A stretch of 64,000 nt of DNA from Candidatus Wolfebacteria bacterium RIFOXYD12_FULL_48_21 (lineage in GTDB: Bacteria; Patescibacteriota; Minisyncoccia; UBA6257; UBA9933), in assembly GCA_001793945.1 (NCBI GenBank), contig MGIW01000006.1, positions 202,239-266,238 of the forward strand, written 5' to 3'. Each line of letters opens with the position of its first letter. Position 1 is the stretch's first letter. A model generated the notes under the pieces. The model made no database searches. It was given only the letters and a program-made list of their open reading frames with translations, and was not told the origin of the DNA. This document shows, piece after piece, positions 10,785 through 32,326 of the stretch. Made by a program: the position numbers and the translations under genes.

Positions 10785-11103
10785 TATAACGCATGGCTTC
10801 GAGCGCGATTGTAAACGACTGGCCAAGCGGTATCGTTCACTCGAGGAAGACATTGGCGAATTAAAGAAGGTGCTTGCGTTATTCCCGGCCGGAAACGGAA
10901 AGCATTTTGCGACCCTTGTTGAAACGGATATGGTTAAGATTATTAAAGCGCGTTTGTTTTGCCGGTACTTGAAAGGATCTTCATTGCGCGTTATCTATGC
11001 CTATAACGAAGAAGCGGAACAAATCAATTTTATCGAGTTGTATTTTAAGGGCGATCAAGAAACGGAAAATGAAGCGAGAATCAAAGCATATCTAAAGGGA
11101 TAA
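10774..11103 (+). CDS. putative toxin partner of the Panacea antitoxin (RelE/ParE-like fold suspected)
   Basis: 109-aa ORF overlapping the antitoxin stop by 11 nt; ...RVIYAYNEEAEQINFIELYFKGDQ resembles RelE-superfamily C-terminus. Confidence 0.4.
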   Translation: MNFDITHGFERDCKRLAKRYRSLEEDIGELKKVLALFPAGNGKHFATLVETDMVKIIKARLFCRYLKGSSLRVIYAYNEEAEQINFIELYFKGDQETENEARIKAYLKG

Positions 11104-11104
11104 G

Positions 11105-11300
11105 CCCTTGTTGTCATTCCGAGTGAAGCCGTACTCGGCGCAACCGAGGAATCTGTAGTAGTTACCATGTTATTAACATAATCCATGACCCAAAGGTTGT
11201 CATTCCGGACTTGCCTCGCGCTGAGCTTGTCGAAGTGATCCGGAATCCAGAGCCTGTGTCATTCCGGCGGAGGCCGGAATCCAGATTTACTATTTTTTAC
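11105..11300. repeat. cluster of MITE-like hairpin units (gtcattcc...ggaatccag family)
   Basis: ttgtcattccgagtgaagccgtactcggcgcaaccgaggaatctg; gtcattccggacttgcc...atccggaatccag; gtcattccggcggaggccggaatccag. Confidence 0.7.
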
Positions 11301-11313
11301 TGCTAAACCACCC

Positions 11314-11339
11314 ATGACCCAAGACGAAGCATTTGCAAT
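11314..11339 (+). repeat. direct repeat copy of the first 26 nt of the helicase gene (atgacccaagacgaagcatttgcaat)
   Basis: Identical to 12170-12195; ~20 nt upstream also similar. Confidence 0.8.
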
Positions 11340-11393
11340 TTTGTACGAGTAATAAACTCGATACTCTGTATCAGATATTATATAATAAAGCTT

Positions 11394-11879
11394 ATGGTGA
11401 ATAATTATGCGTTTATTGATAGCCAAAATCTGAATCTTGCAATTAAAGACCAAGGATGGAATCTTGATTTTGAACGGTTCAGGATTTATTTAAAAGACAA
11501 ATATAGTGTGACAAAGGCGTTTATTTTTATTGGATATATACCAACGAATCAGCCTCTTTATACGGCTTTACAAAAATATGGATATATATTGGTATTCAAA
11601 CCTACGCTTGAATTGCCTGATGGTAGAGTGAAGGGGAATGTTGATGCCGAAATGGTATTGCATACCATGATCGAATATTCGAATTATGAAAAAGCATTAA
11701 TTGTGACGGGGGATGGTGATTTTTATTGTCTAGTGGATCACTTAAAAAACAATGGGAAATTAGCCGGAGTAATGATACCCAATGGGAAGAAATATTCTTC
11801 ATTGCTCAGAACATTTACTGGAGATACTATTTTTATGAATAATCTCAAGGAGAAGTTGGGATATAATAAAAATATGTAA
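11394..11879 (+). CDS. NYN-domain (LabA/PIN-like) ribonuclease family protein
   Basis: AFIDSQNLNLAI...VDAEMVLHTM...ALIVTGDGDF has the acidic-residue pattern of NYN/LabA domains. Confidence 0.7.
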   Translation: MVNNYAFIDSQNLNLAIKDQGWNLDFERFRIYLKDKYSVTKAFIFIGYIPTNQPLYTALQKYGYILVFKPTLELPDGRVKGNVDAEMVLHTMIEYSNYEKALIVTGDGDFYCLVDHLKNNGKLAGVMIPNGKKYSSLLRTFTGDTIFMNNLKEKLGYNKNM

Positions 11880-12009
11880 AAAAAGAGGCATAGCCGCGGG
11901 ACGGAACCCTTTGGTTAGCCTCTCATCGTGATAGTTAAAGTATAACAATTGGTCAATATATGTCAATATAAATCAATCCCGCACCTGCGGGATTTATGCT
12001 ATTATAGGT

Positions 12010-12140
12010 ACACATTTATGACCCTCGCATTGTCATTCCCGTCCTTCGACAAGCTTAGGATAAAACTTCGAGCGGGAATCCAGAGCCTGTGTCATTCCGA
12101 GCGGAGTGGTACTCCATGTAGTCGAGGAATCTGCAGTATT
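12010..12140. repeat. MITE-like hairpin units
   Basis: cattgtcattcccgtccttcgacaagcttaggataaaacttcgagcgggaatccagagcctgtgtcattccgagcggagtggtactccatgtagtcgaggaatctgcag. Confidence 0.7.
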
Positions 12141-12169
12141 CGTAATTTTTACTACAAACCTTATTACCT

Positions 12170-13894
12170 ATGACCCAAGACGAAGCATTTGCAATCTTAA
12201 AGACCGGACGAAATGTGTTTTTGACAGGAGAGCCGGGGAGTGGCAAGTCCCACATGGTCAATCGCTATGTGGAGTATTTGCGGTCCTGCGGGGTTGAACC
12301 GTCCATTACAGCGTCCACGGGCATTGCCGCCACGCACATCGGCGGCATGACGATCCACTCGTGGAGCGGCATCGGGGTACGGACCCGGCTGACCGACCAC
12401 GACCTTGAATTGATGCTCGACAAGGACCGGCTGGTCAAGCGGCTTCGGGCCGCGCGGGTGTTGATCATCGATGAAGTTTCCATGCTTTCGGGCGACACAC
12501 TGGCGGTGGTGGAGCAGGTTTGTCGCGTCTTGCGCGACTCCATAGAGCCCTTTGGAGGGCTTCAGGTGGTCCTGGTGGGCGACTTTTTTCAACTGCCGCC
12601 CATTATGCCAAAAGCCGACCAAGAGCGTGTAAAAACGATTTCTCTCGATGGGGAAGATCAGTGGTCACCCTTTGCATTCATGGGTACGGCGTGGGCAAAA
12701 GCGGACCCGACCATCTGCTATCTGACCGAACAGCATCGGCAGGAAGACACAGAGTTTTTAAAGGCACTTTCGGCCATCCGTCGCGGGGAGGTTACCGACG
12801 AGGTGCGCGAATGTTTTGCGGGCCGGCGTGTGGAGCCCGCCGTTGCGGACGATCATACCAAACTATATACGCACAATTTCGCGGTCGATAAGCTCAACGA
12901 TGCGCGGCTCGCAAAACTGCCGGGCGAGCGGCGCGACTTCGCGATGAAGAGCGAAGGCGCCCCGACGATCGTGGAGGGGTTGAAGCGTGGATGCTTGTCG
13001 CCCGAAACACTTTCGTTGAAATTGGGGGCGAAGGTCATGTTCACCAAAAACAGCGTCGAGGGAAAGTTCGTCAACGGCACCATCGGCGAGGTGGTCGGAT
13101 TTTCGCCCGTTACGGGCTATCCGCAGATCACGATGCACAACGGCAAGACGATCGAACCCGAGTTGGGCGAATGGAGTATCTATGACGGCATGAAGATGCT
13201 TGGCATGATCAAACAAATTCCGCTTCGCCTTGCCTGGGCCATCACGGTCCACAAGAGCCAAGGCATGTCGCTCGATACTGCAATCATGGATCTTTCACAA
13301 GCGTTTGAATACGGACAGGGGTATGTCGCGCTATCACGCGTGCGTACGCTCGCGGGGTTATATCTGTTGGGGTATAACGAACGGGCACTCGAAGTGCATC
13401 CCGATGTGTTTGCGAAGGATATCCAGTTCCGCGCCGCGTCCGAAAAGGCCCGGTATGACTTCGCCGCACTCGGCGAAGAACAAATCGCCGATCTGCAACT
13501 GCAGTTCATCAACACCATCGGCGGAGCCGTGGGCATGGGCATGCAGGCGCCTGCGCCCAAGGTTTCGACCTACGACGCAACGGCCGAGCTGGTCGCGCAG
13601 AAATTGTCGGTTGCCGACATGGCAGAAAAGCGTGGCGTAACCGAAGCCACGATCATCACGCATTTAGAAAAGCTGGTTGCCAATGGAACCCTCGATCCTG
13701 CAGCCGATTTGGAATACCTAAAGCCCGAACGCCGCCGGTTCGTGACCATGCAGGCAGCACTCGAAAAGACCTATAAAAAGAAGGGGAGCATGCTATTAAC
13801 CCCCGCCCAGTCCCTCCTCGGCCCCGGGTTTACCTTTGAGGAATTGCGGGTTGCGAGGCTGTTTTTGGGGAAAACCGAAGATCCGTCATCCTGA
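12170..13894 (+). CDS. Pif1/RecD2-family ATP-dependent DNA helicase with C-terminal HTH_40-type domain
   Basis: Walker A GEPGSGKSH, Walker B LIIDEVSML, motif QHRQ; C-terminal LSVADMAEKRGVTEATIITHLEKLV helix-turn-helix module. Confidence 0.75.
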   Translation: MTQDEAFAILKTGRNVFLTGEPGSGKSHMVNRYVEYLRSCGVEPSITASTGIAATHIGGMTIHSWSGIGVRTRLTDHDLELMLDKDRLVKRLRAARVLIIDEVSMLSGDTLAVVEQVCRVLRDSIEPFGGLQVVLVGDFFQLPPIMPKADQERVKTISLDGEDQWSPFAFMGTAWAKADPTICYLTEQHRQEDTEFLKALSAIRRGEVTDEVRECFAGRRVEPAVADDHTKLYTHNFAVDKLNDARLAKLPGERRDFAMKSEGAPTIVEGLKRGCLSPETLSLKLGAKVMFTKNSVEGKFVNGTIGEVVGFSPVTGYPQITMHNGKTIEPELGEWSIYDGMKMLGMIKQIPLRLAWAITVHKSQGMSLDTAIMDLSQAFEYGQGYVALSRVRTLAGLYLLGYNERALEVHPDVFAKDIQFRAASEKARYDFAALGEEQIADLQLQFINTIGGAVGMGMQAPAPKVSTYDATAELVAQKLSVADMAEKRGVTEATIITHLEKLVANGTLDPAADLEYLKPERRRFVTMQAALEKTYKKKGSMLLTPAQSLLGPGFTFEELRVARLFLGKTEDPSS

Positions 13895-14170
13895 ACTTGT
13901 TTCAGGATCTGGGCGGGGGTCATTCCCGCGAAGGCGGGAATCCAGTATCCCCGCATTGTCATTCCGGCCTCCGAGCCGGAATCCAGTATTTGTGTCATTC
14001 CCGTGAAAACGGGAATCCAGTATCCCCGTATTGTCATACCGGCCCGTTCGACAGGCTCAGGGTAAAACTCCGGCCGGTATCCAGCGCATTGTCATTCCTG
14101 CAAAAGCAGGAATCTACTTCGCATTTTTCGCATTGTCATTCCGGCCTCCGAGCCGGAATCCATCCCCACT
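13895..14170. repeat. tandem array of about seven MITE-like hairpin units
   Basis: Units gtcattcc-[cgcgaaggcg / ggcctccgagcc / cgtgaaaacg / tgcaaaagca]-ggaatccag separated by tatccccgcatt-like linkers; preceded by tcatcctgaacttgtttcaggat hairpin. Confidence 0.8.
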
Positions 14171-14291
14171 CCATAACCGTGAAAACATGCCATTGTACGG
14201 CCACTTTTCACGGTTATGGACGCAAAACCGTGAATGATCGTTTTCGTGACGTTAGTAAAATGGTTGATGCTTTCCAATCCCTCGTACTAAC

Positions 14292-14321
14292 TTGACAGTT
14301 TATTCATGTGTACGCTATTAT
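14292..14321 (+). promoter_or_regulatory. sigma-70-like promoter TTGACA-18-TATTAT upstream of Phd/RelE pair
   Basis: TTGACA 14292-14297, TATTAT 14316-14321, overlapping gtac...gtac palindrome. Confidence 0.5.
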
Positions 14322-14327
14322 GTACAT

Positions 14328-14687
14328 ATGGATAGCAAGACAACAATTTCAATTTCCGAAGCACGGAAGAAAATATTCGATATTGCCACCGAGGTACAGG
14401 CTCCCGGTAAGCACTATACATTAACTGAAAAAGGCCGACCAAAGGCGGTTATTATGTCTGCCGAAGAGTTTGAATCGTGGACGGAGACCATGGAAATCAT
14501 GCGTGAATTTCCTGACATTAAAAAAGATATTGCCCGTGCCGAGCGGGAATATAAGAGTGGTAATTATATAACCCTTGAAGATCTCTTGGAAAAAGAGGGG
14601 TATGTGTTAGCGGGTAAGACATCTAAAAACTATGCAGTATCGGATCATTCTGCCAAAAAGCGTACAAAAGGAGCTCGAAAAGCTTGA
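14328..14687 (+). CDS. Phd/YefM-family antitoxin
   Basis: ISISEARKKIFDIATEV...HYTLTEKGRPKAVIMSAEEFESWTETMEI is the Phd/YefM fold; unusually long C-terminal extension overlapping the toxin start. Confidence 0.6.
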   Translation: MDSKTTISISEARKKIFDIATEVQAPGKHYTLTEKGRPKAVIMSAEEFESWTETMEIMREFPDIKKDIARAEREYKSGNYITLEDLLEKEGYVLAGKTSKNYAVSDHSAKKRTKGARKA

Positions 14688-14883
14688 TAAGAAGATTAGA
14701 ATGCGGGTGATTGTAACCTTGCAGGAATTAAGCAAAGATCCTTTTGCCGGGAAAAAGTTGCAAGGAGAACACGCAGGCCAGTGGTCGGTACGCGCATGGC
14801 CATATCGGGTCATCTACAGGATAAACAAAGGCGAGCTCGTTGTACTTGTTATTCGCATCGCTCATCGGCAAGGAGCGTATTAA
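14632..14883 (+). CDS. RelE/ParE-family toxin
   Basis: MQYRIILPKSVQKELEKL...YRVIYRINKGELVVLVIRIAHRQ. Confidence 0.65.
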   Translation: MQYRIILPKSVQKELEKLDKKIRMRVIVTLQELSKDPFAGKKLQGEHAGQWSVRAWPYRVIYRINKGELVVLVIRIAHRQGAY

Positions 14884-15150
14884 AAACCCCCCCGCATTGT
14901 CATTCCCGCCCATTCGTCCGCCGGCTGGCGGATCAGGGTAAACTCCGGCGGGAATCCGTGGCCTGTGTCATTCCCGTGAAAACGGGAATCCAGTATCCCC
15001 GCATTGTCATCCCGTGCTCCGACACGGGATCCAGATCATGTGTCATTCCCGTGAAAACGGGAATCCAGTATCCCCGCATTGTCATTCCGGACTTGATCCG
15101 GAATCCAGTATTTGTGTCATTCCCGTGAAAACGGGAATCCAGAGTAGAGG
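14884..15150. repeat. tandem array of MITE-like hairpin units
   Basis: gtcattcccgtgaaaacgggaatccagtatccccgcattgtcat... repeated; includes ccgccggctggcgg core hairpin. Confidence 0.8.
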
Positions 15151-27434: not shown

Positions 27435-27686
27435 ATGACTACTTTAACCGTGCGGATCGATGAAAAAATAAAGGCGAAGGCGAACAAGGCATTTGAAAAG
27501 CTTGGGCTTGATATGTCTGGCGCGATAAAGATCTTCCTCAATCAGGTCATCAAGGAAGATGGTCTTCCGTTTACGCCTACCAATAACGATGCCGTTATTA
27601 AGGCTCGTTGGGATAAGCAGGTTGCTGAAGCGAAAAAACGGCCTGGCTTTAAAACTGCGCACGAAGCGCTTAAGGATCTTTTATAA
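27435..27686 (+). CDS. dinJ: DinJ/RelB-family antitoxin
   Basis: LTVRIDEKIKAKANKAFEKLGLDMSGAIKIFLNQVIKEDGLPF matches DinJ. Confidence 0.75.
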   Translation: MTTLTVRIDEKIKAKANKAFEKLGLDMSGAIKIFLNQVIKEDGLPFTPTNNDAVIKARWDKQVAEAKKRPGFKTAHEALKDLL

Positions 27687-27697
27687 TTTATCTACCA

Positions 27698-27982
27698 ATG
27701 TACATCATTAAACGTACGAGAGATTTTGATAAATCTTTTACGAAGCTTGTTCGTGCGGGAATTACTGATAAACAGATTGGGGCGATCAAACTCGTGATTG
27801 ACACGCTTGCTATAGGGCAAATATTAGATAAGAAATACAGAGATCATCAGCTAAAAGGGAAGCTCGGAGATTATCGAGAATGCCATGTTTTAAATGATCT
27901 TTTACTTATGTATAGAATTGAAGAGGATGAATTATTATTAACATTGATCGATATCGGCAGTCATTCGCAATTGTTTGGGTAA
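27698..27982 (+). CDS. yafQ: YafQ-family mRNA interferase toxin
   Basis: ...LKGKLGDYRECHVLNDLLLMYRIEEDELLLTLIDIGSHSQLFG matches the YafQ C-terminus. Confidence 0.75.
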   Translation: MYIIKRTRDFDKSFTKLVRAGITDKQIGAIKLVIDTLAIGQILDKKYRDHQLKGKLGDYRECHVLNDLLLMYRIEEDELLLTLIDIGSHSQLFG

Positions 27983-28063: not shown

Positions 28064-29356
28064 ATGGAACAGAAGATCGGCATGGAACAATCGGGTGAAA
28101 ATGACCATTATAAGGAATTCGCCGAGGGGCGTAAGCGGTTCGCCGGGGAAATAGGCGAGCGTACTTTGGATGTCGCAAAAGAGGGAAAGGAGGATAAGGA
28201 GCGCGATCTTGAAATGGCGCAACAACATGTTGAAGCATATAAGAAAAAGGCGGAGCAACTGCGCGATGCTATTGATGCGAAGAAAAGGGGCCTGATAGCA
28301 AAGATCATAAACTACAAACAGCTAAAGGAATTAAGAAAAGATCTGAGCCGGAATGAAGATGTTCTGCGCGAGCGCGAGGAAGAGCAACAATGGCGAACGG
28401 AGATGATTGGCTATTACGATCGTTTGATCGAGGAAGAAGAGCAGATGGGCGAGCTTATGGAAGAAGCGTATGCGGACAATGCACTGTTTGATGAGGCAAA
28501 GAAGCAGGAACTCATAATGGAAGAACAAGGGCGGAGCGTGATGGAGCAGGCAAAGAAACATAATGTATTTTTTGTGAGCGATATTGTTACCGCCGATTGG
28601 AAGCCAAGCGCGAACAACTATGTCATTGATACAAAAAAGCTTGATTTTGAAGATCAGCTTAATATCGTGTTAGGGTTTGAGCCCACGATAGCGGTTTCTA
28701 CACTGAGCCCTGATTCACCCAACCGGACATTCGGAACGGGGGCGTGGGGCGTGTTGCTTGCGGGTGGTCGGATTGTTGGGGGTGCAGAAAGTGACGCCGG
28801 GACCGTAGCAAAAGGATTGCGTAGCAGGTATATTGATCCGCGAAGGCGAAGTGTGAAGGCGATCGATGCGGCCATTGAGCGGCCATGGGGCGGCGGTAAG
28901 GAGGCGTCTACGAGCTATAACGAACTGGTTGTAGAGAAGCCCGAGGTTGCCGGAGTATATTTTAAACTTGAATCGGAAGATATTCCGCAAGATATGCAAC
29001 AAGGTAAAGAGATTACCCTCCCTAAGAACTATGGAGATATGTGGTGGGGGCAGGTTGGCCAAATCATGAAGACGGGGACTCCGTTGTTTGTCATAGAAAG
29101 AAACAACAATACGGTACGGATGATCTATGATGTCGATCTGGAAAATCGGTCGTTCAAGATGACCCCGGCGTATGATCCGGAAAATCTGACCAATATGCCG
29201 GGTGTCTATAAACAGCATACAGACGAGGCGCATCGACGGGATGCGGTGGGTAAGGTGTTTGATAAGGCGTCTCACCTGTTGACCGAAGAAGAGCGCGAGC
29301 AACATGAGCGTGAAAAGGACAAGGGAGATGCCAGTAATTTTATCAATGTGTATTAG
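28064..29356 (+). CDS. hypothetical protein (coiled-coil N-terminal third, globular C-terminus)
   Basis: 430-aa ORF, charged KE-rich N-terminus; no recognisable catalytic motif. Confidence 0.45.
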   Translation: MEQKIGMEQSGENDHYKEFAEGRKRFAGEIGERTLDVAKEGKEDKERDLEMAQQHVEAYKKKAEQLRDAIDAKKRGLIAKIINYKQLKELRKDLSRNEDVLREREEEQQWRTEMIGYYDRLIEEEEQMGELMEEAYADNALFDEAKKQELIMEEQGRSVMEQAKKHNVFFVSDIVTADWKPSANNYVIDTKKLDFEDQLNIVLGFEPTIAVSTLSPDSPNRTFGTGAWGVLLAGGRIVGGAESDAGTVAKGLRSRYIDPRRRSVKAIDAAIERPWGGGKEASTSYNELVVEKPEVAGVYFKLESEDIPQDMQQGKEITLPKNYGDMWWGQVGQIMKTGTPLFVIERNNNTVRMIYDVDLENRSFKMTPAYDPENLTNMPGVYKQHTDEAHRRDAVGKVFDKASHLLTEEEREQHEREKDKGDASNFINVY

Positions 29357-29382: not shown

Positions 29383-30090
29383 ATGAACAAGCTTATTTTT
29401 CTTGATACGGAGACGACGGGGAATGATGTGACCAGGGACCGGCTGTGTCAGGTGTGCTACAAAACGACTGATGGCATACGCACGGAGTTTTTCAAGCCGC
29501 CGATTCCGATTTCCGTGGAATCGATGAGCATTACGCACATTACCAATAAAATGGTCGCGGACAAGGCTCCGTTTGCGGGAAGCGCGATGGCGGGCGAGCT
29601 GGGGGCGTTGTTGAACGAAGGTATTTTGGTGGCGCATAATGCGGTGTTTGACAAGGCAATACTCGAAGCGGAGGGGCTTGCTGTACCAAAATACATTTGC
29701 ACATTGCGTGTTGCGCGCGCGCTTGATCCGGAAGGGGTTTTGCCGCAGTACAAACTGCAGTTTTTGCGGTATTACCTCGACCTTGATGTCGATGCGCATG
29801 CGCACGATGCGGAGGGCGATGTGAAGGTTTTAGTGGCGGTGTTTGATCGGCAATTTGCAAAACTGAAGCAGGAAGGGTTGAGCGATGATGAAGTCGTCGA
29901 AAAGATGCTGCATATTTCTACTACGCCGATGCTGTTCAAGAAGTTCACATTTGGAAAGCATATCGGCAAGGATATTGCCGAAGTGGCAAAAATCGACAAA
30001 GGATATTTACAGTGGCTCTTGGGGCAAAAAATGGCAGAGGCCATTCCGGACGAGGATTGGGTGCATACGCTGAATACATATTTGAAATAA
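29383..30090 (+). CDS. DEDDh 3'-5' exonuclease (DnaQ-like) with exonuclease-X-type C-terminal domain
   Basis: Exo I FLDTETTG, Exo II VAHNAVFDKAIL, Exo III HDAEGD; C-terminal KKFTFGKHIGKDIAEVAKIDKGYLQWLL. Confidence 0.8.
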   Translation: MNKLIFLDTETTGNDVTRDRLCQVCYKTTDGIRTEFFKPPIPISVESMSITHITNKMVADKAPFAGSAMAGELGALLNEGILVAHNAVFDKAILEAEGLAVPKYICTLRVARALDPEGVLPQYKLQFLRYYLDLDVDAHAHDAEGDVKVLVAVFDRQFAKLKQEGLSDDEVVEKMLHISTTPMLFKKFTFGKHIGKDIAEVAKIDKGYLQWLLGQKMAEAIPDEDWVHTLNTYLK

Positions 30091-30099
30091 TAAAAGGAG

Positions 30100-30175
30100 T
30101 GGATTCCGGCCTCCGCCGGAATGACAATACGGGAATTCAGATCCTGAAACAAGTTCAGGATGACAATTTATCCAC
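30100..30175. mobile_element. MITE-like element
   Basis: tggattccggcctccgccggaatgacaatacgggaattcagatcctgaaacaagttcaggatgacaat. Confidence 0.7.
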
Positions 30176-30500
30176 GCATTTTTATTTTGGTTGTTCGTTG
30201 GGCGAGGTCGCCGTGGGCGGGATGATGCGTATGTTTTCCGGCAATTGTTCCTCAATTTTCCACAAAAGTAGGACGACGATGATTATGATCAGCCCGATGA
30301 TGATATGAACCGACCATTTGAAATAGTGTTTCATGGGGTATGTGTTTAGTAGATCTTTCCTATAATGATACACCTCACAGGGGGGTGCAGTACAGGTTGG
30401 ATTTTGAGCGCTTGTTGACAAGAAGTGCTTTTATGGTAAAGTTTGTCTTAGTTGCCATATGATGTGGTGATACAGAACCTTTACTTTGTGAGGAAATACG

Positions 30501-30980
30501 ATGGAAAAAGACAGCAAGATGAGCATCGAGGAACTCTTGGTCGGTACCCCGCTCCTTATGTTTTTGCAGGAGCTGGCGGCGATCAAGGACGAAGAGATCG
30601 TGGACGATCTCCCCCCGATCAAAGAGGGTGAGATTCCCCTTGGTGATATGACGCCGTTTGAAAAGCGGCTCAACCTTTGGGTTGATCGGAGAGCCGAAAA
30701 AGAAGATTCTATCCGCGCCGAGGCTTTGTCTGGCGATGGCGGCACGATGTGCTTGTCGGCGTATGAGTTTGGCGCCGAAACAAGCAGGCGGTTTGCCTTG
30801 TTGGGGGAATCTGTTCCGGTGCGCTATCCGCAGATAAAAACTACGAACTGTGCCCTCAGGCAAGGATTCAAGATCGTGACCAATGTGCGCGCGGAAAACC
30901 CGCTGGCCACGGAGTTTGACATCGCTCATGTGCTCGCAATATTTACCGGGCATGATTTGAGCGGTAGAAAGCCTCGCTAA
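30501..30980 (+). CDS. hypothetical protein, tandem paralog A
   Basis: SIEELLVGTPLLMFLQELAAIKDEEIVDDLPPIKEGEIPLGDMTPFEKRL...LRQGFKIVTNVR; paralogous to 31136-31669. Confidence 0.5.
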   Translation: MEKDSKMSIEELLVGTPLLMFLQELAAIKDEEIVDDLPPIKEGEIPLGDMTPFEKRLNLWVDRRAEKEDSIRAEALSGDGGTMCLSAYEFGAETSRRFALLGESVPVRYPQIKTTNCALRQGFKIVTNVRAENPLATEFDIAHVLAIFTGHDLSGRKPR

Positions 30981-30994
30981 ACTTTCTCTCTGTT

Positions 30995-31050
30995 TGTTAT
31001 AAAGCCCGTTCGTCCATCCGCCAACTGGCGGATGGACGAACGGTATTTTT
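30995..31050 (+). terminator. terminator after paralog A
   Basis: cccgttcgtccatccgccaactggcggatggacgaacggtatttttttg. Confidence 0.7.
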
Positions 31051-31135
31051 TTGACAAAAAAATACCGTGTGGTACATTTTATCTTAGTTGCCATATGGCA
31101 TGGCGATACAGAACCTTTACTTTGGGAGGAATACG

Positions 31136-31669
31136 ATGGAGAACGCGATAAAAAAATCGGTAAGCATCGAGGAGCTGTTGGTGGGCATGTCGTTGCTGAC
31201 ATTTTTTCAGGAGCTGGTGGCGATCAAGGATGAGGAGCTTGTTGATAAGTTGCCGCCGATTAAGGAGGGCGAGATCCCCCTCGGCGATATGACGCCGTTT
31301 GATAAGCGGCTTAGCCATTGGTTTGATCTGAAGGCAAGCGAGATCGTGGCATGGGGCGAAGAGATGCAGGAATCCATCTGCGTCACATGCAAAGTATGTG
31401 GTACTGCAGATGCGGAAATGGCTCCGTGCGCCGATATGTTCAAGCTGGGCGATTATGTTAGCGAGCGGTTCCATTCATTTATAAGCGAATCGGTCAGCGA
31501 GCGATTCCCGCGCGCAAAAGGAGACATAGCCTTGCGCCAAGGATTCAAGATCGTGACGAATGTCCGTGAAAAACCTGAAAATCATTTTGTTTGCATTGGC
31601 AATTTCGAGGATATCGCTGAACTGCTCGGCCCGTTGTCTATGCAAATGTCCGGCAAAAAGCCTCATTGA
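31136..31669 (+). CDS. hypothetical protein, tandem paralog B (with Cys-rich insert CVTCKVCGTADAEMAPC)
   Basis: SIEELLVGMSLLTFFQELVAIKDEELVDKLPPIKEGEIPLGDMTPFDKRL...LRQGFKIVTNVR. Confidence 0.5.
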   Translation: MENAIKKSVSIEELLVGMSLLTFFQELVAIKDEELVDKLPPIKEGEIPLGDMTPFDKRLSHWFDLKASEIVAWGEEMQESICVTCKVCGTADAEMAPCADMFKLGDYVSERFHSFISESVSERFPRAKGDIALRQGFKIVTNVREKPENHFVCIGNFEDIAELLGPLSMQMSGKKPH

Positions 31670-31689
31670 TCTTTACCTCTTGAGGCGAT

Positions 31690-31730
31690 ACAGCGCCCGT
31701 CCGCCAGTTAGCGGACGGGCTTTTTTGTTT
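31690..31730 (+). terminator. terminator after paralog B
   Basis: cgcccgtccgccagttagcggacgggcttttttgtttg. Confidence 0.7.
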
Positions 31731-31765: not shown

Positions 31766-32326
31766 ATGCCGAAACAGAAAAAGACAATTCTTTTATGCGA
31801 TCGAGCTATCGCATATGACCTGAAGAAAAGCAGTCGCGCAAAGCGGATGCGGATCGCCGTTTCTGCGGGTGGTGTGCTTTCTGTTACCGTGCCATATCGG
31901 TTCCCCGACATGTTCGTGGAGCGGTTTTTACATGAAAAGGCGGAATGGATCCTGCGGCAAATGGACCACATGCGCCAGCGGGGTGGACTACTTGCGCGCT
32001 ATGGCCGTGCGCACTATTTTGAACACAAGGAAGCCGCTCGGGCATTGGTGCATGCACGGCTCGCACACTTCAATCAATTTTATGATTTTGATTATGGTGC
32101 CATTAGCATTCGCGATCAAAAGACGCGCTGGGGGAGTTGTTCCCGCTCGGGCAACCTGAACTTCAACTATAAACTTGCCGTTGTGCCCGAACATGTTGCC
32201 GATTATGTCATCGTGCATGAGCTGTGTCATTGCAAGGAGTTCAACCACTCCAAAGCGTTTTGGAAACTGGTCGAGCGGACTGTTCCGAACCATCGGGAGA
32301 TCAGAAAACAGTTGAATCGCCTATAA
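31766..32326 (+). CDS. YgjP-like metal-dependent hydrolase (DUF45 / M48-related, HExxH)
   Basis: YVIVHELCHCKEFNHSKAFWKLV. Confidence 0.7.
   Translation: MPKQKKTILLCDRAIAYDLKKSSRAKRMRIAVSAGGVLSVTVPYRFPDMFVERFLHEKAEWILRQMDHMRQRGGLLARYGRAHYFEHKEAARALVHARLAHFNQFYDFDYGAISIRDQKTRWGSCSRSGNLNFNYKLAVVPEHVADYVIVHELCHCKEFNHSKAFWKLVERTVPNHREIRKQLNRL

What the first reader, a model, noticed from the sequence alone, without database searches (positions are those of the whole stretch)
30430..31730. Tandem paralogous unknown genes, each with its own conserved promoter-leader and terminator
Genes 30501-30980 and 31136-31669 share an identical 25-aa N-terminal region and a C-terminal LRQGFKIVTNVR motif. Their middles diverge, and only the second has a Cys cluster (CVTCKVCGTADAEMAPC). 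The ~60 nt upstream of each start are also conserved (cttagttgccatatg...gatacagaacctttactttg.gagga.atacgatgg). Each gene is followed by a long-stem terminator built on the ccgccaNNtggcgg core. Independent transcription of diverging paralogs suggests diversification of a surface or interaction protein, or an effector-immunity pair.
Basis: seen in the sequence. Interest (0 to 1): 0.5.

Follow-up and report, generated by a model that had tools for sequence, protein, structure and literature searches.

The report
Duplicated hypervariable small-protein gene cassette
Two neighbouring genes in a Candidatus Wolfebacteria genome are old copies of one complete promoter-to-terminator gene unit for an undescribed small protein, and this spot in the genome varies sharply between close relatives, although what the protein does is still unknown.

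Summary
Genes 30501-30980 (A) and 31136-31669 (B) are paralogs (48% identity, E 2e-42). Each has a near-consensus extended -10 promoter, a conserved ~50-nt leader and an intrinsic terminator. One detail is overstated: the longest identical run is 17 aa, not 25.

The window is Candidatus Wolfebacteria (CPR). The proteins belong to a rare family of about 150-180 aa with no match in Pfam, NCBIfam, PHROGs, PADLOC, PDB or phage collections. A confident AF2 model (pLDDT 84) shows a small conserved alpha/beta base and a long helical hairpin. B carries a Cys4 site at the hairpin tip; A has lost it.

The leader starts with an 8-bp stem-loop supported by covariation, followed by an invariant ACAGAACCUUUAC block. 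It was found only upstream of these genes.

The main new result is that the locus is hypervariable. In two genomes whose flanking genes are 93-100% identical, this gene is 50% identical with saturated synonymous sites. Copy number is 1 or 2, and one contig carries a clean A/B recombinant. Both window copies are under purifying selection.

An effector-immunity pair and a surface protein are not supported. A role in conflict or partner specificity is my inference. Function is unknown.

The parts
30415..30442 (+). Promoter of gene A: TTGACA, 16-nt spacer, TGn-extended -10 TAAAGT. Predicted start of transcription is about A30450.
   Evidence: Consensus scan, 10 of 12 matches plus TG. The same promoter type occurs in L004 and L001. 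The TSS is inferred from spacing and has not been measured.
30451..30471 (+). Leader A stem-loop at the 5' end: GUUGCCAU-AUGAU-GUGGUGAU, 8 pairs with a 5-nt loop.
   Evidence: RNAfold. Covariation on 13 leaders: 91% of cells paired, 5 of 8 pairs with changes on both sides, and 0 of 500 shuffles reach the observed score (7-sequence version).
30472..30484 (+). Invariant single-stranded block ACAGAACCUUUAC in leader A. It is followed by a U-rich spacer and the Shine-Dalgarno GAGGA at 30490-30494.
   Evidence: 13 of 13 identical even between copies whose proteins are 33-37% identical and whose synonymous sites are saturated. CCUUU can pair with the Shine-Dalgarno.
30501..30980 (+). Gene A, 159 aa: a family member that has lost the Cys4 tip (12-residue deletion, one Cys left).
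   Evidence: The ortholog in L004 is 69% identical with dN/dS 0.41. The whole A cassette (about 30354-31000) is an indel relative to L135.
31006..31052 (+). Intrinsic terminator of A: 17-pair stem, 4-nt loop, T-run. The T-run runs into the -35 box of the B promoter.
31051..31078 (+). Promoter of gene B: TTGACA, 16-nt spacer, TGn-extended -10 TACATT. Predicted TSS is about A31086.
   Evidence: The same promoter type occurs at single-copy loci L135, L003 and L002-downstream.
31087..31107 (+). Leader B stem-loop at the 5' end: GUUGCCAU-AUGGC-AUGGCGAU.
31108..31120 (+). Invariant block ACAGAACCUUUAC in leader B. Shine-Dalgarno GGGAGGA lies at 31124-31130.
31136..31669 (+). Gene B, 177 aa: the ancestral-type family member.
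   Evidence: identical to NCBI 'hypothetical protein A2524_01750', Candidatus Wolfebacteria. AF2 model with pLDDT 84. dN/dS to orthologs 0.16-0.22.
31379..31429 (+). Codons 82-98 of B: Cys cluster C-x2-C-x2-C-x9-C. In the model it sits in the loop at the tip of the helical hairpin (H54-80 / H99-123).
   Evidence: The four Cys are conserved in B-type and many other family members (P0008-P0014, P0017-P0022) and absent from others. The bound metal is unknown.
31695..31726 (+). Intrinsic terminator of B: 10-pair stem, 6-nt loop, T-run.
30182..30334 (-). Context: small predicted membrane ORF (50 aa, MKHYFKWSVHIIIGLIIIIVVLLLW...), divergent from gene A and present at most related loci.
   Evidence: No function is known, and whether it belongs to the unit is untested.
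31766..32326 (+). Context: YgjP-like (PF01863) metallopeptidase gene. It is the conserved downstream neighbour at all Wolfebacteria loci that reach that far, followed by pheS and pheT.
   Evidence: It has its own promoter. Two loci carry insertions between it and the family gene.

Best explanation
Shown by the data:
- The pair is a lineage-specific tandem duplication of one complete, self-contained expression cassette. The cassette runs from a near-consensus extended -10 promoter to a ~50-nt leader, then the coding sequence, then an intrinsic terminator. The leader has a 5'-terminal stem-loop, an invariant ACAGAACCUUUAC block and a strong Shine-Dalgarno.
- The product is a small, acidic, cytoplasmic protein from a rare family found so far in CPR-type genomes.
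- In the model, a conserved alpha/beta base is built from residues 11-60 and the beta hairpin 131-143. A long antiparallel helical hairpin projects from it, and its tip carries a Cys4 metal site in the ancestral form (B).
- Copy A is old (synonymous sites against B are saturated). It is still under purifying selection and has lost the Cys4 tip.
- In Wolfebacteria the slot between the ExoX-like gene and YgjP-like/pheST is a hotspot. It holds one or two cassettes. Its alleles are far older than the genomes that carry them.
- Unequal crossing-over in the conserved leader and N-terminal region can fuse copies, giving an A promoter and the first ~45 A codons joined to the B remainder.

Inferred, not shown:
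- The conserved base docks onto a conserved cellular partner. The variable hairpin, tip and C-terminal tail set specificity.
- The module works as a dimer. Other lineages fuse two modules in one chain, so A and B may form a heterodimer.
- Deep allelic divergence within fixed flanks reflects balancing or conflict-type selection, for example against phage, the host cell or competitors.
- The 5' stem-loop stabilises an abundant monocistronic mRNA. The invariant block is a site of translational control.
For: Paralogy and cassette anatomy.

Organism and rarity of the family:
- 7 close homologs among 5.8 billion proteins, one named Candidatus Wolfebacteria.
- A profile search of 1.84 billion representatives gave 43 hits. 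Two of them, P0020 and P0032, are spurious repeat proteins.
- More Wolfebacteria names appear.

No known family: Pfam on 40 members, NCBIfam, PHROGs, PADLOC, PDB by sequence, Foldseek PDB and BFVD, phage records and IMG/VR all gave nothing.

Leader:
- The hairpin is 91% paired, 5 of 8 pairs change on both sides, and 0 of 500 shuffles reach the observed score.
- The block is 13 of 13 identical between copies with saturated synonymous sites.
- A covariance model finds it only upstream of family genes in 167 kb.

Hypervariability:
- L136 vs L138: flanking genes are 93-100% identical (dS 0.03-0.50), while this gene is 50% identical with pS 0.76.
- Nucleotide identity falls from 90-100% to 41-64% across the coding sequence and terminator, with the shoulders of the drop at about 5950 and 6570. 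The promoter and nearly all of the leader are identical, and the sequences part just before the Shine-Dalgarno.
- Across loci, YgjP-like is 74-97% identical, against 22-79% for this family.

Copy number: single at L003, L135, L136, L138 and L140; tandem in the window, L002 and L142.

Recombinant: L001 is 38-40/40 identical to A up to about position 1040, then 37-39/40 identical to B-type. The longest exact A/B run is 20 nt, far below the assembler's k of 127 (pS values).

Selection: dN/dS is 0.16-0.22 for B orthologs and 0.41 for A orthologs.

Two-module fusions: P0030, P0034, P0040 and P0043.

Cytoplasmic and acidic.
Against: - There is no experimental or homology-based evidence for any biochemical function.
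- No defence, toxin or immunity model matches.
- Fast evolution with dN/dS around 0.2 is also what a weakly constrained, non-essential protein would show.
- Deep alleles could come from differential loss of old paralogs without any balancing selection.
- The promoter, TSS and terminator are consensus predictions only.
- The recombinant rests on a single 2.2-kb metagenome contig.
- Many of the double-sided changes in the hairpin are inherited within a few lineages, so the number of independent events is small.
- The AF2 model has low confidence for the C-terminal 30 residues, and no structural relative corroborates it.
- Contexts of distant family members differ, so the link to YgjP-like may be local synteny only.
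Confidence: 0.55

Rival explanations
1. An ordinary lineage-specific regulator or adaptor, for example a redox- or metal-sensing Cys4 protein. It has no conflict role. It evolves quickly because constraint is weak outside the base domain. The duplicates have subfunctionalised, with A being a metal-free variant, and the deep alleles are only differential loss of old paralogs.
For: - Purifying selection acts on both copies.
- The gene sits in a conserved chromosomal slot beside housekeeping genes.
- It has a strong promoter and a conserved leader, typical of a regularly expressed gene.
- Tandem pairs exist in three lineages and could seed differential loss.
- The C-x2-C-x2-C...C spacing resembles ferredoxin-type cluster ligands (own knowledge).
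Against: - 50% identity inside flanks that are 93-100% identical is extreme for a housekeeping regulator.
- Copy number, insertions (IS200-type transposase in L140) and a hybrid gene mark the slot as unstable.
- The family is absent from most bacteria.
Confidence: 0.25
2. An effector-immunity (toxin-antitoxin-like) pair, in which one copy neutralises the other.
For: Two adjacent small genes lie in a variable region. There is a weak sub-threshold Pfam match of B to Tox-PLDMTX (E 0.022, 15.3 bits against a cut-off of 26.1).
Against: - The two are homologs of each other.
- A strong terminator and a promoter separate them.
- Most relatives carry only one copy, usually the B type.
- No toxin or immunity family reaches threshold in any of 40 members.
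Confidence: 0.03
3. A secreted or surface-exposed interaction protein of an episymbiont, diversifying under host pressure.
For: Hypervariability. CPR bacteria live attached to hosts (own knowledge).
Against: - No signal peptide, lipobox or membrane segment; the protein is acidic and soluble.
- The Cys4 site and helical-hairpin architecture suggest an intracellular metal-binding protein.
- No secretion genes lie nearby in the window.
Confidence: 0.07
4. A cytoplasmic accessory factor of type IV pilus-like machinery.
For: - One distant member (P0036, L143) sits in a tight same-strand cluster: MshEN-domain protein, 42-aa membrane ORF, family gene, 32-aa ORF, then a pilin-like gene (GFTLIG...).
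- Another member (P0050, L132) lies near a pilin-like gene.
Against: - No prepilin-type motif occurs anywhere in the 64-kb window.
- None appears at the nine Wolfebacteria loci or at L128.
- Pilin-like genes are numerous in CPR genomes, so chance adjacency is likely (own knowledge).
Confidence: 0.1
5. For the leader only: it is a ligand-sensing riboswitch rather than a stability or translation element.
For: The leader has conserved structure plus an invariant single-stranded block next to the Shine-Dalgarno, and CCUUU can pair with GGAGG.
Against: - No Rfam family matches the leader even at E up to 10.
- There is only one 8-bp hairpin with a variable loop, which is too little for a known aptamer class.
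- The CCUUU/Shine-Dalgarno pairing is weak and absent from the L136/L138/L142 leader variants.
- The hairpin begins 0-1 nt from the predicted TSS, the position at which 5' stem-loops protect mRNAs from 5'-end-dependent decay (established for ompA and aprE; own knowledge).
Confidence: 0.05

Closest known systems
Polymorphic immunity-gene arrays and other conflict loci that evolve by duplication, loss and cassette replacement
   Same: - Small cytoplasmic acidic proteins.
- Divergent paralogs in tandem, each able to stand alone.
- Alleles much older than the surrounding genome.
- Recombination between copies.
- Location in a slot that also receives insertions.
   Different: - No cognate toxin nearby.
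- No match to any immunity, toxin or defence model.
- Every genome examined keeps at least one copy at the same chromosomal slot beside pheST.
- Each copy has a conserved, dedicated promoter and leader.
DksA/TraR-type and Gre-type factors (small globular base plus a long antiparallel coiled-coil hairpin)
   Same: - Size of 150-180 aa and acidic character.
- Order of elements: N-terminal segment, helical hairpin, small beta element, C-terminal helix.
- Four cysteines in many members.
   Different: - No zf-dskA_traR Pfam match.
- The Cys4 site is at the hairpin tip, not in the base.
- The tip is the most variable part and carries no conserved acidic motif.
Small Cys4 iron-sulfur or zinc regulatory proteins (WhiB-like proteins; ferredoxin-type C-x2-C-x2-C...C ligands)
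   Same: Small helical proteins with four conserved cysteines. The first three are spaced as in ferredoxin-type cluster sites.
   Different: - No sequence or fold similarity was detected.
- The fourth Cys follows Pro instead of preceding it.
- Many family members, including gene A, lack the site altogether, so it is not essential to the fold.
5'-terminal stabiliser stem-loops of bacterial mRNAs (ompA, aprE and ermC leaders)
   Same: A stable hairpin begins 0-1 nt after the predicted start of a monocistronic, strongly promoted mRNA. It is followed by an unstructured U/A-rich stretch and a strong Shine-Dalgarno.
   Different: The TSS is predicted, not mapped. The extra invariant 13-nt block has no counterpart in those leaders, and stabilisation alone does not explain it.

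Membership tests
Any curated protein family (Pfam-A, NCBIfam, PHROGs, PADLOC) | Score above the family threshold against the profile HMM | tested here: not met
   No family reaches threshold for A, B or any of 40 family members. The best hits are isolated single-member matches below the cut-offs.
Effector-immunity / toxin-antitoxin pair | Two non-homologous partners | tested here: not met
   A and B are paralogs: 48% identity, E 2e-42.
Effector-immunity / toxin-antitoxin pair | Co-transcription as one operon | tested here: not met
   A 17-pair terminator with a T-run and a full promoter lie between the genes. This is a prediction only; no transcript data exist.
Effector-immunity / toxin-antitoxin pair | Pair conserved together in relatives | tested here: not met
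   Single copy at L003, L135, L136, L138 and L140.
Secreted or surface protein | Signal peptide, lipobox or membrane anchor | tested here: not met
   The N-termini are polar, the highest 19-residue Kyte-Doolittle mean is 1.2-1.3, and pI is 4.9. No dedicated signal-peptide predictor was available.
DksA/TraR family | zf-dskA_traR C4 zinc finger in the globular domain, and a conserved acidic tip | tested here: not met
   No Pfam match. The Cys4 site is at the tip, and the tip is otherwise variable.
Known RNA families (Rfam 15), including riboswitches | Covariance-model match in the leader | tested here: not met
   No match in either leader at E up to 10. Only the terminator hairpins gave weak chance-level matches.
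Structured 5' leader element (new motif) | Base pairs maintained by compensatory change across homologs | tested here: met
   13 leaders: 91% of cells paired, 5 of 8 pairs with changes on both sides (14 cells), 0 of 500 shuffles reach the score, and slid controls give 20-61% paired.
Sigma-70-type promoter and intrinsic terminator | Consensus hexamers with correct spacing; GC-rich hairpin followed by a T-run | tested here: met
   10 of 12 hexamer matches with a TG extension for both promoters, and two strong terminator hairpins. Function was not tested experimentally.
Diversity-generating retroelement target | Nearby reverse transcriptase with a template repeat; variation confined to adenine positions | tested here: not met
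   No reverse-transcriptase domain occurs among the neighbours at any locus. Divergence spans the whole coding sequence and terminator, with saturated synonymous sites.
Locus under long-term balancing selection or allele replacement | Synonymous divergence at the gene far above that of flanking genes in the same genome pair | tested here: met
   pS is 0.76 at the gene against 0.03-0.37 in nine flanking genes (L136 vs L138). dS is 0.72 against 0.29 for ExoX (window vs L135). Allele frequencies within populations were not tested.
Iron-sulfur or zinc protein | Bound metal cofactor | not testable with these tools
   Only the conserved C-x2-C-x2-C-x8-12-C pattern and its position at the hairpin tip are seen.

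The most novel reading that the evidence does not exclude
The family is the variable specificity component of an undescribed CPR conflict or recognition system. A conserved base engages a fixed cellular partner. A metal-capped helical hairpin and the C-terminal tail are exchanged between strains as whole cassettes, by recombination anchored in a dedicated conserved leader. Tandem copies would act as heterodimers that widen specificity.
Probability: 0.2. Interest if true: 0.7.

Novelty: new variant of a known kind. Interest (0 to 1): 0.45.

Why it matters
CPR bacteria carry very many proteins of unknown function, and there are few ways to decide which deserve study. This locus gives a concrete candidate with several useful properties:
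- The gene is short and easy to express.
- The predicted fold is confident and has no known relative.
- Some natural variants have the Cys4 site and others lack it.
- The leader RNA motif is dedicated to this family within the sequence examined.
- The evolutionary signature is that of genes involved in recognition or conflict: alleles far older than the genomes that carry them, copy-number change, and a recombinant.

If the conflict reading is right, the locus would be a handle on how ultra-small episymbionts deal with phages or hosts. If it is wrong, the locus is still a clean example of whole-cassette duplication followed by loss of a metal site.

Tried and rejected
- Leader pattern scan of genome contigs: a 14-base pattern (GATNNAGAACCTTTAC) returned only chance matches in unrelated phyla (loci L008-L127).
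- First AF2 run with 7 sequences: pLDDT 45, unusable. It was replaced by the 40-sequence run.
- Foldseek against afdb50: the library was not available.
The 7-sequence alignment found only two more loci.
- Profile word search with 40 sequences: returned few proteins. The exhaustive HMM search was the useful one.
- P0020 and P0032 (long multi-stretch hits): repeat proteins unrelated to the family.
- Tandem Repeats Finder on the palindromic-repeat cluster: nothing.
- Literature searches for COG1451 with restriction and for Wolfebacteria with hypervariable: nothing relevant.
- Pseudogene idea for A: rejected on dN/dS and the intact ortholog.
- Recent gene conversion as the reason for the similar N-termini: rejected, because synonymous sites there differ at pS 0.57.
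- Assembly chimera for L001: judged unlikely, because A and B share at most 20 identical bases.
- Phage origin: rejected.
- Single-member matches to ScpA (E 0.0058) and JetA (E 0.00025) among 40 members: treated as noise and not followed further.
Full report
**1. What is there**

The region holds two + strand ORFs, A (30501-30980, 159 aa) and B (31136-31669, 177 aa). They are clear paralogs: BLASTP gives 48% identity and E 2e-42.

The similarity is uneven. The first ~60 residues are about 75% identical, with a longest identical run of 17 aa (LPPIKEGEIPLGDMTPF). The 13-aa run ALRQGFKIVTNVR is shared near the C-terminus. The middle and the tail differ.

Only B has the cluster CVTCKVCGTADAEMAPC. 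A has a 12-residue deletion there and keeps one Cys.

Each gene is preceded by a near-consensus promoter with a TG extension:
- A: TTGACA-N16-TGnTAAAGT at 30415-30442.
- B: TTGACA-N16-TGnTACATT at 31051-31078.

Each gene is followed by a strong terminator hairpin with a T-run, at 31006-31043 and 31695-31720. The duplicated unit is thus a whole transcription unit of about 640 bp. The two terminators share a core with a compensatory difference.

That core, CCGCCANNTGGCGG, is a genome-wide palindrome. It occurs at 7 sites in the window against 0.6 expected, so it is not a private feature of this pair.

**2. Organism and family**

B is identical to an NCBI 'hypothetical protein' of Candidatus Wolfebacteria. 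Other members also carry Wolfebacteria names.

Only 7 close homologs exist among 5.8 billion proteins. An exhaustive profile search of 1.84 billion representatives gave 43 hits at E below 1e-3. Two of these, P0020 and P0032, proved to be unrelated repeat proteins. The rest are mostly proteins of 140-215 aa, and each cluster has only one or two members.

The family signature has two motifs: GE-x-V-[IL]-GEM-x2-[FL]-EK, and W-x-S-I-x2-R-[FL]...G-[IV]-R-x-G-[FY]-[KR]-[IV]-V.

Nothing matches in Pfam (all 40 members scanned), NCBIfam, PHROGs, PADLOC, PDB sequences, phage records or IMG/VR.

Four relatives of about 300 aa contain two complete modules in one chain.

**3. Structure**

With 7 sequences AF2 failed (pLDDT 45). 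With 40 sequences it gave pLDDT 84.2 and pTM 0.74. The model for B has these elements:
- short N-terminal helices (11-29);
- a strand (46-51);
- a long antiparallel helical hairpin (54-80 and 99-123);
- a beta hairpin (131-142);
- a low-confidence C-terminal helix.

The Cys cluster (82-98) is the loop at the tip of the helical hairpin.

Conservation across 17 Wolfebacteria-group sequences is high in residues 11-60 and 131-143, which together make the base. It is low in the distal helices, in the tip apart from the four Cys, and in the tail.

Both proteins are acidic (pI 4.9) and have no signal peptide or membrane segment.

**4. The leader**

From the spacing of the -10 boxes, transcription should start at about A30450 and A31086. 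The next base opens an 8-pair stem with a 5-nt loop (30451-30471 and 31087-31107).

I collected 13 leaders from related loci and aligned them. In that alignment 91% of cells pair and 5 of 8 pairs show changes on both sides (14 cells). No shuffle out of 500 reaches the observed score, and slid registers pair at only 20-61% (the 7-sequence version is). G-U pairs argue for RNA rather than a DNA operator.

After the stem comes ACAGAACCUUUAC. This block is 13 of 13 identical even between cassettes whose proteins are 33-37% identical and whose synonymous sites are saturated. A U-rich spacer and a strong Shine-Dalgarno follow.

CCUUU can pair weakly with the Shine-Dalgarno. That pairing is not kept in the more distant leader variant of L136, L138 and L142. 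Those leaders keep the hairpin but carry GCACAUUU instead of the block.

Rfam has no match. A covariance model built from the 13 leaders finds only family-gene leaders in 167 kb, including the whole window. Leaders of distant family members (L128, L132) are not recognisably related.

My reading has two parts:
- The hairpin is a 5'-terminal stabiliser, by analogy with the ompA and aprE leaders (own knowledge).
- The invariant block is a recognition site for translational control. Its partner is unknown.

**5. The locus is hypervariable**

In all Wolfebacteria contigs the family gene lies upstream of a YgjP-like gene and pheS-pheT, and usually downstream of an ExoX-like gene.

Copy number differs between loci:

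| State | Loci |
|---|---|
| One copy | L003, L135, L136, L138, L140 |
| Two copies in tandem | window lineage, L002, L142 |

In L002 both copies keep the Cys cluster. In L142 one copy has it and the other lacks it. Relative to L135, the whole A cassette is an indel.

The clearest comparison is L136 against L138:

| Measure | Nine flanking genes | Family gene |
|---|---|---|
| Protein identity | 93-100% | 50% |
| Synonymous divergence | dS 0.03-0.50 | pS 0.76 (saturated) |

Nucleotide identity drops from 90-100% to 41-64% across the coding sequence and terminator. The shoulders of the drop lie at about 5950 and 6570. The promoter and nearly all of the leader stay identical, and the sequences part just before the Shine-Dalgarno.

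Across all loci the YgjP-like protein is 74-97% identical, while the family protein is 22-79% identical.

Because synonymous sites are saturated as well, this is not merely fast amino-acid change. The alleles are much older than the genomes that carry them. Two routes could produce this: replacement by recombination through the conserved flanks, or differential retention of old tandem paralogs.

L001 shows the recombination directly. Its single gene matches A at 38-40 of 40 positions from the promoter to about codon 45. After that it matches B-type genes at 37-39 of 40 positions (pS 0.26 against 0.58 in the first part and 0.40 against 0.78 in the rest). An assembly chimera is therefore unlikely, though it cannot be excluded.

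**6. Selection**

| Comparison | dN/dS | Note |
|---|---|---|
| B orthologs | 0.16-0.22 | |
| A orthologs | 0.41 | 0.56 in the C-terminal part |

A against B has dS above 1 in the N-terminal part and is saturated beyond it. Three conclusions follow:
- The duplication is old.
- Neither copy is a pseudogene.
- The shared N-terminus is kept by protein-level constraint, not by recent gene conversion.

**7. Interpretation**

Shown:
- A whole-cassette tandem duplication of a gene for a small cytoplasmic protein of an undescribed family.
- A dedicated structured leader.
- A hotspot with copy-number change, deep alleles and recombination.
- Loss of the Cys4 tip in copy A.

Inferred:
- The conserved base binds a fixed partner, and the variable hairpin and tail set specificity.
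- The module acts as a dimer, because two-module fusions exist. A and B may therefore pair.
- The evolutionary pattern points to recognition or conflict.

Effector-immunity and surface-protein readings fail their defining tests; see the membership table.

A pilus link is a weak lead. It rests on one operon-like context (L143) and one loose context (L132). No pilin-type motif occurs in the window.

A plain, weakly constrained regulator remains a serious rival.

**8. Novelty and score**

Tandem paralogs and hypervariable cassette loci are a known kind of genome behaviour. The protein family, its predicted fold and the leader motif are not described in any library searched here. Orphan families are common in CPR genomes, so a specialist would find this notable but not astonishing.

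Interest is 0.45. The most novel reading still allowed is a variable specificity component of an unknown CPR recognition or conflict system. I give it a probability of about 0.2.

Noticed in passing
window 11100-15130, 30090-30130, and other sites (27 matches to GGAATGACAA against 5.4 expected): Dispersed, locally clustered short palindromic repeats of the form GGATTCCCG-loop-CGGGAATGACA(A/C). They often lie several in a row in intergenic DNA, and one lies just upstream of the small membrane ORF next to gene A. Related copies occur at the same place in L001, L004 and L135. Tandem Repeats Finder reports no regular array.
   Followed up: partly
window 14918, 27249, 31018, 31701, 40404, 55548, 57528: The palindrome CCGCC(A/G)GCTGGCGG recurs at 7 places against 0.6 expected. 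It appears inside terminators (31018, 31701 and 40404, the last looking bidirectional) and inside the repeats above. The genome seems to reuse one palindromic core for terminators and repeat elements.
   Followed up: partly
L140 6783-7130 and 2948-4961: In this relative an IS200-type (Y1_Tnp) transposase gene is inserted between the family gene and YgjP-like. A methyltransferase, an MjaI-type restriction enzyme and a PIF1-like helicase lie just upstream of ExoX. The neighbourhood behaves as a variable island.
   Followed up: no
L143 451-2110 (also L144): A distant family member (P0036) sits in a tight same-strand cluster: MshEN-domain protein, 42-aa membrane ORF, family gene, 32-aa ORF overlapping its stop, then a pilin-like gene (KKGFTLIGLLVV...). 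This is a possible link to type IV pilus-like machinery, seen once.
   Followed up: partly
L136 7072-7300 against L138: A second sharp drop in nucleotide identity (to about 51%) occurs at the 3' end of the YgjP-like gene and in the spacer before the SulP gene, in two otherwise near-identical genomes. YgjP-like also has higher dS (0.50) than the other flanking genes (0.03-0.27).
   Followed up: no
window 30182-30334 (- strand): A 50-aa ORF with one hydrophobic helix (MKHYFKWSVHIIIGLIIIIVVLLLW...) is divergent from gene A. It is kept at the same place in L001, L003, L004, L135 and L140. It is probably a real small membrane protein. Whether it relates to the family gene is unknown.
   Followed up: partly
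L002 1558-2235: The downstream family gene in L002 has lost its normal stop (KKYH-RSAMPS... instead of KKPH-stop). It reads through its own terminator hairpin into the start of the YgjP-like gene, giving 225 aa (P0004). This is either a sequencing error or a real stop-loss.
   Followed up: no
window 27435-27982 (mapped from L005 6917-7464): A RelB/YafQ-type toxin-antitoxin pair lies a few kb upstream of the finding, preceded by S24 peptidase-like and PaaX-like regulator genes. The 430-aa protein at 28064-29356 has no family match and is conserved next to ExoX.
   Followed up: no
proteins P0030, P0034, P0040, P0043 (not in the window): Relatives of about 300 aa consist of two complete family modules in one chain. 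This hints that the module works in pairs.
   Followed up: partly
alignment A3 members: One member each gave weak isolated matches to two kleisin-type models: ScpA in NCBIfam (E 0.0058) and JetA in PADLOC (E 0.00025). I treated these as noise and did not identify which member was responsible.
   Followed up: no
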